From the NCBI RefSeq assembly GCF_022846255.1, contig NZ_AP025682.1: a DNA stretch of 64,000 bases; one strand, 5' to 3'. Position numbers: made by a program. The stretch's first letter is position 1. Each line of letters opens with the position of its first letter. Below, piece after piece: positions 11,364-14,300 of this stretch. Source of the DNA: Escherichia coli (GTDB taxonomy: Bacteria; Pseudomonadota; Gammaproteobacteria; Enterobacterales; Enterobacteriaceae).

Positions 11364-14300
11364 TTATCGCGTCCCATCAGAGAATTATAAAAATTGCTAA
11401 AATGCTAAACCGGTTTAGGAGTTGATAATAAAGCTGACTTTTTAGCCAGAGCAATTATTTTCACTAAACCGATTTAGTAAATGTGACAGGCACGACAAAT
11501 CGGGTTACAGATACAACAGCAGGATCACTATTGTGAAGGGAGATCGTGTTGTCGGGGTAAGGCGGTCATCGCGCCTTTAGCCGTGGTCGCCAGAGCACCA
11601 CAAATCTGAGCTTGTGCAATGATTCGTTCAAGCTGTCTGGTATTTGTTGGTATTCCAGAATCAGCCAGACCGGCAAGTAATCCAGCGACAAAAGCATCTC
11701 CTGCCCCGGTCGTATCGACGACAGAAACAGGTTTGGCGGGATAGTGGATAAACTGCCCCTGAAAATACACAAGTACGCCATTTTTTCCTTGTGTAATAAG
11801 CAATAAAGTCAACGAATAACGTTGTACTAATGAATATGCGCCTTGCTGAACCTGGCTTTCGCCACTGATGAATAGCAACTCTTCTTCGGACAATTTAGCG
11901 ATATTCGCCAGCGAAAGCGCGCGATCAAGGTATTTTCTTAATAGCGCTTCACTCTGCCAGAGATCGCTGCGGATATTGGGATCAAAACTGATGTTTCCGC
12001 CAGCCTGACGTATTTTCTCCATAGCCAGAAATGCGGTACTTCGGGAAGGTTCTGCACTGAGCGCAATGGAACAAAGATGGAGCCATTCACCCGGCCCAAA
12101 TGTAGGAAGGTCATCAGGTTGTAAAAAAAGATCGGCACTTGGGCGTACCATAAAGGTAAAGTTTCTTTCTCCTTGCTCATCAAGTCCTACAGCCACAATT
12201 GAGGTGCGATGTTGAGGATCAAGAGACATATAACGTGTATCAACATTTTCTTTACTCAGTGTCTGATACATAAAGCGACCGAAAGGATCATCGCCAACTT
12301 TGCCAATAAAGGCACTTTCCCCCCCCAGCCTTGCGATACCGACTGCAACATTAGCAGGCGCCCCACCAGGACACTGTAGTAGTCTCCCCTGGCTTTCGGG
12401 TAATAAATCAACAACCGCATCACCGAGTACCCATACTCTTGTGCTCATAAAGGCTCCAATATACTAATTGCTAAACAAATTAAATCGGTTTAGCAATTAA
12501 AGCATAAACGCTGCTCAGGAGAGAACAATATTCAGCAGTGGTTACCCGGTATTTTGTAGTGGAAACGTGAATATGCCGGGATTAATCATCTACCCGGCAC
12601 TGTTTATCTCACTTACGCATTCGACCAGCTCTGGATCGAATCCGCATTCCCCAATTCCCCATGCATCACTTCATACGATTTTTTCAGGATCACATCAGTA
12701 TGTTTGGTTAGGTCTTTGAAAATGCCTTTATTCATCGCGTCGTAGCGTTTGGCATTGCTCTCAATCGGTATGAAGATATCTTTCACGCGAACCATTTTAT
12801 CGACAGCCTTTGTGTAATCCGGGTATAGCCCCAGACCTACCGCCGTATTGATCGCAGCCCCCAGACTTGCACAACCGTTAATGGCGTTTCGGCGTGTCGG
12901 AAGGTTGAACACGTCGGCAAAAATCTGCATAAACAGATCGCTGTTCGAACCGCCGCCAGTAATGATCACATGCTTTGCAAAGTGATTCATTTCATGACAC
13001 ATATTGTCGTAATTATTCTTCAGCGTCAGCGCCACGCTTTCCAGTATCGAACGATATATCCATGCGTAATCCATACTGGAATCAAAGCCGATCATAATTC
13101 CGCGTTTGTACGGTTCCCACGGATTGGTCAGCCAGTCCAGCACCGTCATCAGCCCATTACAACCAGGTGGCACGCAAGACGCTTTTTTGTTGAGCAAATC
13201 TTCCGGTGAAAGATCCTGTGCTTTGGCATCCTGAATTAACGACTCGCCTAACATGTCGCGCAGCCAGCTCACCGTCCACATGCCTTTGCGAATACCGTAA
13301 CCTTCATACAGCAATGTTTGCGGAATAGAAGACATAATCGGCCAGTACGCGACCGGATCTTTCGGCAGTGCTTTGCCGTTCATCATCAACGCGATATAGG
13401 TGCCAAGAGAAATTACCGCCGTTTCATCATCCAGTAACCCGGCTCCCAGAGCTTCTACCGGTTTATCACTGGTGGTACAAACAACCGGCAGCCCAGCCGG
13501 GAAATGTGTCGCCAGCGCAGCTTGTGGTGTGATATGCCCAAGAACAGTGCCCGGCATTTGCACGTCAAAAAGCATCTGGCGGGGGATATTAAACTTTTCC
13601 ATTACCGCGGCATCTTTGCTCCATGCCCAGCTCTTATAATCCACTGGCCACTGACCAAAATAGTTGGCGATATTGTCTTTAAACTCGCCGGTTAAGCGAT
13701 GTGTCAGATAACCCGAAAAAGAGGTGACATAGGCCACGTCAGGATTAGTGTGTTCGTAAGGGCGTGTAACGCGTGCATCCTGCCAGCTAATCAACGGCGC
13801 GGCTGGCGTACCATCGGCTTTCAATAGCGCACGGCAGCAACGGATTGAGCCCAGGCCAATGCCGACAATATCTTCTTTATTTCCGGCAAACTGGCTCATC
13901 AAATCGTGGCCGGCAAAGCATAATGATGCCCATAAATCGTCGTCAGGATGTTCTGCGGTATCGGCATCTGGCGTGTGCATCGGCTGCAATAAGCCTTTGC
14001 CTTCGCAAACCACATTACCTTCCAGATCGTACATCACCACTTTTGTGCTCTGACTTCCGCCATCAATCCCTATGATGTATTTTTTCGACATGATTTTTCT
14101 CCTGTAATTTTCCTGGCTTACTTGCTGCTAGCCATTGCGGGGGCGCTATCAGCAGTACGAATTTTTTGGAACAACAAAAAGGTAAAGACGATCACCATGG
14201 CGAGCGCTGCCATGCCCATCAGCCACATGTTGCGGTAGGCTTCAGCGGCAGGTAGGGTGTCTTGCCAGTAGCCGATAATCGGGTAAACGAAGACATCCGG

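What the first reader, a model, noticed from the sequence alone, without database searches (positions are those of the whole stretch)
11404..12497. Family of CTAAACCG-type palindromes upstream of scrY and scrK
Two palindromes, GCTAAACCGGTTTAG and ACTAAACCGATTTAGT, lie in the scrK-scrY intergenic region, and TTGCTAAAC-N11-GTTTAGCAA lies upstream of scrK. They share a half-site and are the type of operator expected for the LacI-family ScrR, which would allow separate repression of scrK and scrYAB. A TGTGA half-site near 11481 may indicate CRP input at scrY.
Basis: partly seen in the sequence, partly recalled or inferred. Interest (0 to 1): 0.35.

Follow-up and report, generated by a model that had tools for sequence, protein, structure and literature searches.

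The report
Known ScrR operators of sucrose genes
These short palindromes are the already-described binding sites of the sucrose repressor ScrR, plus a CRP site, in front of the E. coli sucrose genes scrY and scrK, so the finding is correct but ordinary.

Summary
The window carries the E. coli scrK-scrYABR sucrose locus on the minus strand. A matrix built from 80 other scr loci, with the window left out, finds three strong sites in 64 kb. Two flank the predicted scrY promoter (11405-11418 and 11464-11477). One lies at the scrK promoter (12480-12493). In the 80 loci, sites within 2 mismatches occur 206 times upstream of scrY or scrK and once elsewhere in 885 kb.

The scrY pair matches the published pUR400 arrangement of two 14-bp ScrR operators around the -35 and -10 elements. 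Published work also states that ScrR represses both promoters.

One refinement: the scrK operator is the canonical CG-centred CTAAACCGATTTAA. It is not the N11-spaced palindrome. The palindrome's promoter-proximal arm is an extra half-site. That half-site is conserved in Enterobacteriaceae, but its offset varies (9-12 nt).

The TGTGA belongs to a CRP-like site (11482-11497). Its TCACA half is present in 77 of 81 loci at a fixed distance from the distal operator.

Verdict: already known, low interest. The extra half-sites and a minority allele in the scrK promoter remain minor open points.

The parts
11405..11418 (.). scrY proximal ScrR operator, a perfect 14-bp palindrome CTAAACCGGTTTAG. It covers the predicted scrY transcription start (about 11418).
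   Evidence: Matrix score 25.6 bits. Conserved about 55-60 nt upstream of the scrY ATG in most of the 80 loci.
11464..11477 (.). scrY distal ScrR operator (CTAAACCGATTTAG on the + strand). It lies between the CRP-like site and the -35 element, centred near -52.5 from the predicted start.
   Evidence: 25.2 bits. It sits 58-60 bp centre to centre from the proximal operator throughout Enterobacterales.
12480..12493 (.). scrK ScrR operator, the canonical CG-centred 14-mer (gene strand CTAAACCGATTTAA).
   Evidence: 24.8 bits. A site is present 31-51 nt upstream of the scrK start in Enterobacterales and 55-84 nt upstream in Aeromonas.
12468..12476 (-). Extra ScrR-type half-site (gene strand GTTTAGCAA) downstream of the scrK operator.
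   Evidence: TTAGC lies 9-12 nt beyond the operator's own arm in 46 of 79 loci (chance 0.016). Function unknown.
11394..11402 (-). Extra half-site (gene strand TTTTAGCAA) 8 nt beyond the right arm of the scrY proximal operator, in the predicted 5' UTR.
   Evidence: Present in 29 of 81 loci, at an offset of 8 nt in 28 of them.
11482..11497 (-). CRP-like site (gene strand TGTCG-N6-TCACA; + strand TGTGA-N6-CGACA). Its centre is about -71.5 from the predicted scrY start.
   Evidence: TCACA is exact in 77 of 81 loci. It lies 19 bp centre to centre from the distal operator in 58 loci. 74 of 81 loci score at least 8/10, against 8.5% of random windows.
11449..11454 (-). Predicted scrY -35 hexamer TTGCTC.
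   Evidence: TTGC is 80-90% conserved at this position in the alignment anchored on the operator. Inferred, not mapped.
11425..11430 (-). Predicted scrY -10 hexamer TATTAT, with an 18-nt spacer.
   Evidence: TAnnAT-type hexamers (TAGTAT, TATGAT, TAACAT) occupy the same position in other genera. Inferred.
12496..12501 (-). TTTAAT hexamer abutting the scrK operator. It is either the -35 element or, with the TG at 12503-12504, an extended -10 element.
   Evidence: TTGATT or TTGGTT sits at the same position in Kosakonia, Brenneria, Erwinia and Aeromonas. The assignment is unresolved.
12473..12478 (-). Possible scrK -10 hexamer. It reads TTGTTT in the window and TAGTTT in four of five other E. coli-type loci read; the difference is at 12477.
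   Evidence: The exact window allele is present in only 31 of 981 E. coli records.
11528..12448 (-). scrK, fructokinase.
   Evidence: NF006957, 511.6 bits, cut-off 450.
9843..11360 (-). scrY, sucrose porin.
   Evidence: maltoporin-family models only, 122.6 bits against a cut-off of 394, so the family assignment is below threshold; orthologues in 80 genomes. RefSeq annotates it as a carbohydrate porin.
5970..9782 (-). scrA (8412-9782), scrB (7003-8412) and scrR (5970-6977), the last encoding the cognate LacI-family repressor.
   Evidence: TIGR01996, TIGR01322 and TIGR02417, all above cut-off.

Best explanation
The three CG-centred 14-bp palindromes are operators for the LacI-family repressor ScrR, which is encoded at the end of the same locus. 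At scrY one dimer would bind over the transcription start (proximal operator, about +1 to +14). A second would bind between the CRP site and the -35 element (distal operator, about -59 to -46). Together they would block RNA polymerase and the CRP-dependent recruitment of its alpha subunit. At scrK a single operator overlaps the core promoter. Published work on pUR400 and Klebsiella reports that fructose or fructose-1-phosphate releases ScrR, so sucrose induces both units independently. cAMP-CRP bound at about -71.5 would add catabolite control at scrY. Shown here: the sequence, statistics, conservation and positions of the sites. Taken from the literature: ScrR binding and the inducers. Inferred: the transcription starts, the promoter hexamers and the mode of interference.
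For: There are three sites and no other strong hit in 64 kb with a matrix trained without the window: 24.8-25.6 bits against a next best of 11.4. Chance expectation is 0.11. In 80 orthologous loci, sites within 2 mismatches number 206 upstream of scrY or scrK and 1 elsewhere in 885 kb. Positions and the 58-60 bp spacing are conserved while flanking bases vary. ScrR is present and passes TIGR02417. Even palindromes with a central CG are the LacI-family rule (PMC4052901). PMC11251922 reports two 14-bp inverted repeats flanking the scrY -35/-10 as ScrR operators with mutational support, fructose and F1P as inducers, and a CRP site upstream. PMC4521459 states that the scrK and scrAB promoters are both repressed by ScrR. 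For the CRP-like site, TCACA is exact in 77 of 81 loci at a fixed 19 bp from the distal operator.
Against: No binding or transcription-start data exist for this E. coli allele, and none could be obtained here. The primary papers (Jahreis and Lengeler 1993; Cowan et al. 1991) could not be read, so identity with the footprinted pUR400 sites rests on a secondary description. The scrK promoter hexamers are weak and ambiguous. The left half of the CRP-like site is poor (TGTCG), and PMC11251922 judged the CRP operator not well conserved. The 59-bp operator spacing is not a whole number of helical turns, so cooperative looping is not supported.
Confidence: 0.9

Rival explanations
1. The scrK operator is the wide inverted repeat TTGCTAAAC-N11-GTTTAGCAA. 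A ScrR dimer, or two dimers, would contact two half-sites about two helical turns apart.
For: Both arms are real, and in the window they extend to 12 bp. The downstream arm (G)TTTAGC is kept in 46 of 79 loci. That includes all 40 loci whose canonical right arm is degenerate.
Against: The offset of the extra arm varies from 9 to 12 nt, whereas LacI-family half-site spacing is constant within an orthologous group and centred on CG. The canonical 14-mer scores 24.8 bits on its own. It is present in Erwiniaceae and Aeromonas, which lack the extra arm. The link with degenerate arms follows phylogeny, so it reflects few independent events.
Confidence: 0.07
2. The palindromes act as RNA or DNA hairpins (a terminator after scrK, or 5' UTR structures) and not as protein-binding sites.
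For: The scrK-upstream repeat would fold at -13.1 kcal/mol (z = -4.9). The distal scrY site would fold at -5.4 kcal/mol (z = -2.4).
Against: The proximal scrY site shows no stable fold (-1 kcal/mol, z = +0.6). No T-run follows any of the sites, and the terminator scan did not call them. Conservation is at the level of exact sequence, including the central CG, with no compensatory changes. The scrK hairpin can form only if transcription starts upstream of 12500, which the conserved -35-like element next to the operator argues against.
Confidence: 0.03
3. The sites are also, or instead, targets of the global paralogue Cra (FruR). This would link sucrose genes to glycolytic flux.
For: ScrR's nearest solved relatives are Cra proteins. 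The Cra box TGAAACGTTTCA matches the ScrR core TAAACCGGTTTA at 4 of 6 positions per half-site. PMC4521459 reports 25-32% lower scrA and scrB mRNA in an E. aerogenes cra mutant and notes a Cra-like box in that promoter.
Against: Two specificity positions per half-site differ from the Cra box in every one of the three sites. The reported effect is small and was not shown to be direct. The sites co-occur strictly with scrR in the 80 loci.
Confidence: 0.1

Closest known systems
ScrR operators of the scr regulon of Salmonella plasmid pUR400 and Klebsiella pneumoniae (Cowan et al. 1991; Jahreis and Lengeler 1993, as summarised in PMC11251922)
   Same: [quoted passage not shown] A CRP site lies further upstream. 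The scrK promoter is repressed separately. The gene order scrK-scrYABR is the same. The K. pneumoniae locus L026 has the same three sites.
   Different: This is the E. coli chromosomal (and IncF plasmid) allele, about 70-85% identical in protein to the Klebsiella and Enterobacter loci. It has small differences in operator flanks, an extra TTAGCA copy after the proximal operator, and a minority base at 12477.
Cra/FruR operators (box TGAAACGTTTCA)
   Same: They belong to the same protein subfamily (TIGR02417). They are even palindromes with a central CG, share 4 of 6 bases per half-site, and have fructose phosphate as effector.
   Different: The specificity bases differ (TAAACC against TGAAAC). 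ScrR is a local repressor with three sites in one locus, whereas Cra is a global regulator.
The cscA promoter of the E. coli csc sucrose locus (CscR)
   Same: Two LacI-family operators flank the -35/-10 elements, the downstream one lies over the start site, and a CRP site is adjacent (PMC11251922).
   Different: The repressor is not orthologous. The repeat is 12 bp with a different sequence. The transporter is a permease, not a PTS.

Membership tests
ScrR operator (enterobacterial scr regulon) | Even palindrome with a central CG, typical of LacI-family sites | tested here: met
   All three 14-mers are centred on CG. The family rule is stated in PMC4052901.
ScrR operator (enterobacterial scr regulon) | Two 14-bp inverted repeats flanking the scrY -35/-10, the downstream one over the start site | tested here: met
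   The operators at 11464-11477 and 11405-11418 bracket the predicted TTGCTC-18-TATTAT promoter. This matches the description in PMC11251922. The start site itself is predicted, not mapped.
ScrR operator (enterobacterial scr regulon) | Cognate scrR gene in the same locus | tested here: met
   ORF 5970-6977 scores 463 bits on TIGR02417 (cut-off 389.55).
ScrR operator (enterobacterial scr regulon) | Sites conserved in orthologous scr loci and rare elsewhere | tested here: met
   206 sites within 2 mismatches lie upstream of scrY or scrK, against 1 elsewhere in 885 kb. The window has only three hits of 24.8 bits or more.
ScrR operator (enterobacterial scr regulon) | An operator at the separate scrK promoter | tested here: met
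   The canonical site lies at 12480-12493 and is conserved in 79 loci. ScrR control of the scrK promoter is stated in PMC4521459.
ScrR operator (enterobacterial scr regulon) | ScrR binds the sites in vitro or in vivo and is released by fructose or fructose-1-phosphate | not testable with these tools
   Reported for pUR400 according to PMC11251922. The primary papers are not held.
CRP class I activator site | Match to TGTGA-N6-TCACA | tested here: met
   The window site matches 8 of 10 positions, with the right half perfect. 74 of 81 loci reach 8/10 or better, against 8.5% of random windows.
CRP class I activator site | Centre at -61.5, -71.5, -82.5 or similar relative to the start site | tested here: inconclusive
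   The centre at 11489.5 is -71.5 if the start is at 11418. The start is inferred from the -10 hexamer only.
CRP class I activator site | cAMP-CRP dependence of scrY expression | not testable with these tools
   Catabolite repression of the pUR400 scrY promoter is reported via PMC11251922.
Intrinsic terminator or structured RNA | G+C-rich stem followed by a T-run, or a stable conserved fold with covariation | tested here: not met
   The terminator scan did not call these sites. The stems are A/T-rich, the proximal site does not fold, and no compensatory changes were seen.
Cra/FruR box | Match to TGAAACGTTTCA | tested here: inconclusive
   Direct comparison gives 8 of 12 matches for each site. 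No Cra matrix or binding data were available. The box is quoted from PMC4521459.

The most novel reading that the evidence does not exclude
The extra ScrR-type half-sites are functional auxiliary contacts. These are (G)TTTAGCA 9-12 nt beyond the scrK operator and 8 nt beyond the scrY proximal operator. They would extend ScrR occupancy over the start region or compensate for a right arm sacrificed to a -10 element. In addition, the invariant 19-bp CRP-to-distal-operator spacing would reflect direct anti-activation of CRP by ScrR, in the manner of CytR, and not simple occlusion.
Probability: 0.15. Interest if true: 0.4.

Novelty: already known. Interest (0 to 1): 0.12.

Why it matters
The result confirms that the E. 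coli chromosomal scr locus, carried by about 18% of complete E. coli genomes, keeps the classical ScrR and CRP control region described for pUR400 and Klebsiella. That is useful for annotation, since RefSeq labels none of these sites and names ScrK 'aminoimidazole riboside kinase'. It is also useful for engineering sucrose-utilising strains. It does not change understanding of the system. The conserved extra half-sites, the strongly conserved CRP half-site and the natural promoter variant at 12477 are small, testable additions.

Tried and rejected
I tried to read the primary operator papers (Jahreis and Lengeler 1993, PMID 8412665; Cowan et al. 1991, PMC212511; also PMC178942). None is held, so the pUR400 footprints could not be compared base by base.

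A distant blastn of the scrY promoter against plasmids found only the same E. coli allele on IncF plasmids and one Enterobacter plasmid. It did not find pUR400.

The weak matrix hits at 23492-23958 (7.5-11.4 bits) lie in the queD-cysJ intergenic region. They fall below every training site (minimum 14.6 bits) and are rejected as chance.

I considered the hairpin and terminator reading of the palindromes and rejected it.

I considered DNA looping between the two scrY operators and did not adopt it. The 58-60 bp spacing is about 5.6 helical turns. ScrR is 335 aa and aligns with Cra and PurR-length proteins without a LacI-type C-terminal extension (the oligomeric state is an inference).

The consensus promoter scan did not find the scrY promoter because its -35 element matches only 3 of 6 positions. 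The promoter hexamers therefore rest on cross-species alignment.

Full report
**Context.** The window is E. coli-type chromosome. All five scr genes lie on the minus strand: scrK 11528-12448, scrY 9843-11360, scrA 8412-9782, scrB 7003-8412 and scrR 5970-6977. ScrK, ScrA, ScrB and ScrR pass curated NCBIfam cut-offs. ScrR scores 463 bits on TIGR02417, the 'D-fructose-responsive transcription factor' model (cut-off 390). The porin matches only maltoporin-family models, below their cut-offs. The locus sits between queE and a ygcE-like kinase. The same 1.3-kb segment occurs in 987 of 5426 complete E. coli genomes and on 22 E. coli plasmid records, 21 of the 23 plasmid hits being typed as conjugative and the one read being IncF. 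Primer sequences published for the E. coli SCU-147 scr locus (PMC11251922) match the window exactly at 12559-12581 and 11541-11560, read directly.

**Observation.**
- GCTAAACCGGTTTAG lies at 11404-11418.
- ACTAAACCGATTTAGT lies at 11463-11478.
- TTGCTAAAC-N11-GTTTAGCAA lies at 12468-12496.
- TGTGA lies at 11482-11486.

The 14-mer CTAAACCGGTTTAG with up to 2 mismatches occurs three times in the window, against 0.11 expected. The third match is at 12480-12493 (CTAAACCGATTTAA on the gene strand).

**Comparative test.** I fetched 80 loci encoding ScrY relatives from one genome per species. They cover Enterobacteriaceae, Erwiniaceae, Pectobacteriaceae, Hafniaceae and Aeromonas. Nearly all keep scrK-scrY-scrA-scrB-scrR; Aeromonas has scrY-scrK-scrA-scrB-scrR.
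- In 885 kb of these loci, sites within 2 mismatches number 206 upstream of scrY or scrK and 1 elsewhere.
- Two sites lie near -116 and -57 from the scrY ATG. They are 58-60 bp apart in Enterobacterales and 31 bp apart in Aeromonas.
- One site lies 31-51 nt upstream of scrK in Enterobacterales and 55-84 nt upstream in Aeromonas.
- A matrix built from 116 unique sites, excluding the window and its near-identical MAG L064, has the consensus TTGCTAAACCGGTTTAGCAA.
- That matrix scores the three window sites at 25.6, 25.2 and 24.8 bits. The next best hit in 64 kb scores 11.4 bits.

**Anatomy of the scrY control region, in gene orientation.**
- CRP-like site TGTCG-N6-TCACA at 11497-11482.
- Distal operator at 11477-11464.
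- Predicted -35 element TTGCTC at 11454-11449, followed by an 18-nt spacer.
- Predicted -10 element TATTAT at 11430-11425.
- Proximal operator at 11418-11405, starting 6 nt after the -10 element, so it covers the predicted start near 11418.

In alignments anchored on the operators, the conserved islands are the TTTG and TCACA of the CRP-like site, both operators, TTGC of the -35 element and a TAnnAT-type -10 element. The bases between them vary. [quoted passage not shown] The downstream one lies over the start site, fructose or fructose-1-phosphate releases ScrR, and a CRP operator lies further upstream.

**CRP.**
- Across 81 loci the TCACA half is exact in 77.
- 74 loci reach 8/10 or better, against 8.5% of random 260-nt windows.
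- The site is 19 bp centre to centre from the distal operator in 58 loci, and 77-79 bp from the proximal operator in 66.
- With a start at 11418, its centre is at -71.5, a class I position. This is an inference, because the start is predicted.

PMC11251922 judged the CRP operator 'not well conserved' in eight species. In this larger sample one half-site and its position are strongly conserved, while the other half drifts (TGCGA, TGTCG, TGTTG). I could not see that paper's figure, so I cannot be certain it refers to the same site. The distal operator, centred near -52.5, lies between CRP and the -35 element, where the alpha C-terminal domain is expected to contact DNA at class I promoters. ScrR bound there would plausibly block CRP-dependent activation (inference).

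**scrK control region.** In gene orientation the sequence reads gcTTTAAT-TGCTAAACCGATTTAAT-TTGTTT-AGCAATTAG...GGAG...ATG.

The canonical operator is present in every lineage. The hexamer that abuts it upstream reads TTGATT or TTGGTT in Kosakonia, Brenneria, Erwinia and Aeromonas, and TTTAAT or TTAAAT in Enterobacteriaceae.
- Model 1 takes this hexamer as the -35 element. The operator then fills the spacer, and a TAAnnT-type -10 element overlaps its right arm.
- Model 2 reads TGcTTTAAT as an extended -10 element, which puts the start inside the operator.

In either model ScrR would occlude the core promoter. The start site cannot be settled computationally. PMC4521459 states that the scr regulon has two independent promoters, before scrK and before scrAB, both repressed by ScrR. 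The 'separate repression' idea is therefore established.

**The N11 palindrome.** Its upstream arm is the left arm of the canonical operator. Its downstream arm (GTTTAGCAA, 12476-12468) is an additional half-site.
- TTAGC occurs 9-12 nt beyond the operator's own arm in 46 of 79 loci (chance 0.016).
- It occurs in all 40 loci whose own right arm is degenerate (TTTAA or TTCTT), but in only 2 of 31 whose arm is TTTAGC.
- The variable offset argues against a fixed bipartite operator, because LacI-family half-site spacing is normally constant.
- The split follows phylogeny: Erwiniaceae and Aeromonas lack the extra arm. The association therefore rests on few independent events.
- A similar extra TTAGCA lies exactly 8 nt beyond the scrY proximal operator in 28 of 81 loci, including the window at 11394-11402.

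The function of these extra half-sites is unexplained. They may be an auxiliary ScrR contact, a constraint on the start region, or a relic of a roughly 10-bp duplication. If transcribed, the scrK repeat would fold at -13.1 kcal/mol. That requires a start upstream of 12500, and there is no covariation to support it.

**Rivals.** Terminator or RNA-structure readings fail. The stems are A/T-rich, no T-run follows them, the proximal site does not fold, and conservation is of exact sequence. Cross-recognition by Cra is possible in principle. ScrR's closest solved relatives are Cra proteins, the two boxes share 4 of 6 bases per half-site, and a small Cra effect on scrA and scrB was reported in E. 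aerogenes. It is not needed to explain the sites.

**Verdict.** It reproduces published knowledge of the scr regulon, and ScrR regulons are part of the RegPrecise LacI-family collection (PMC4052901). Novelty: already known. Interest is low. The only additions are the re-registration of the scrK operator, the conserved extra half-sites, the strong positional conservation of the CRP half-site, and a minority promoter allele in this strain.

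Noticed in passing
window 12477: The window has A on the + strand (T on the gene strand), which makes the -10-like hexamer downstream of the scrK operator TTGTTT. Four of the five other E. coli-type loci read have TAGTTT. The exact 57-bp window segment occurs in only 31 of 981 E. coli records. If model 1 of the promoter is right, this is a -11 A-to-T change that could weaken scrK expression.
   Followed up: partly
window 11394-11402 and 12468-12476: Extra ScrR-type half-sites (TTTAGCA) sit 8 nt beyond the scrY proximal operator and 9-12 nt beyond the scrK operator. They are conserved in many Enterobacteriaceae and Pectobacteriaceae but absent in Erwiniaceae and Aeromonas. 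Function unknown.
   Followed up: partly
window 11498-11527: No terminator-like hairpin lies between the scrK stop codon (11530-11528) and the scrY control region. Enterobacter and Klebsiella loci carry a GGCCGCC...GGCGGCC hairpin at that position. Read-through from scrK into scrY is therefore plausible in the E. coli-type locus, as PMC11251922 speculated.
   Followed up: no
window 11434-11449 (minus strand): The consensus scan calls a weak terminator-like hairpin (CTGGCTAAAAAGTCAG followed by CTTTATTATC) inside the scrY -35/-10 spacer. The spacer sequence is not conserved in other genera, so this is probably chance.
   Followed up: partly
L074-L080 (Aeromonas), upstream of scrY and scrK: Aeromonas has the gene order scrY-scrK-scrA-scrB-scrR. 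Its two scrY operators are 31 bp apart, not 58-60. The left arm of the distal operator reads GCTGAAAC, like a Cra half-site. The scrK operator lies exactly between TTGGTT and GATAAT.
   Followed up: no
window 23492-23958: Three weak matrix hits (7.5-11.4 bits) cluster in the queD-cysJ intergenic region. They score far below real sites and are taken as chance.
   Followed up: yes
window 11528-12448 and RefSeq records H1-H12: RefSeq (PGAP) names the ScrK fructokinase 'aminoimidazole riboside kinase' in most E. coli genomes. It annotates no regulatory features in either intergenic region.
   Followed up: no
L084 (NZ_CP023959.1) and 21 other plasmid records: The same scr allele (97.7% identical over the scrY control region) is carried on E. 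coli plasmids: 22 records, with 21 of all 23 plasmid hits typed conjugative, and the one record read is IncFIA/FIB/FIC. The operator cores are unchanged.
   Followed up: partly
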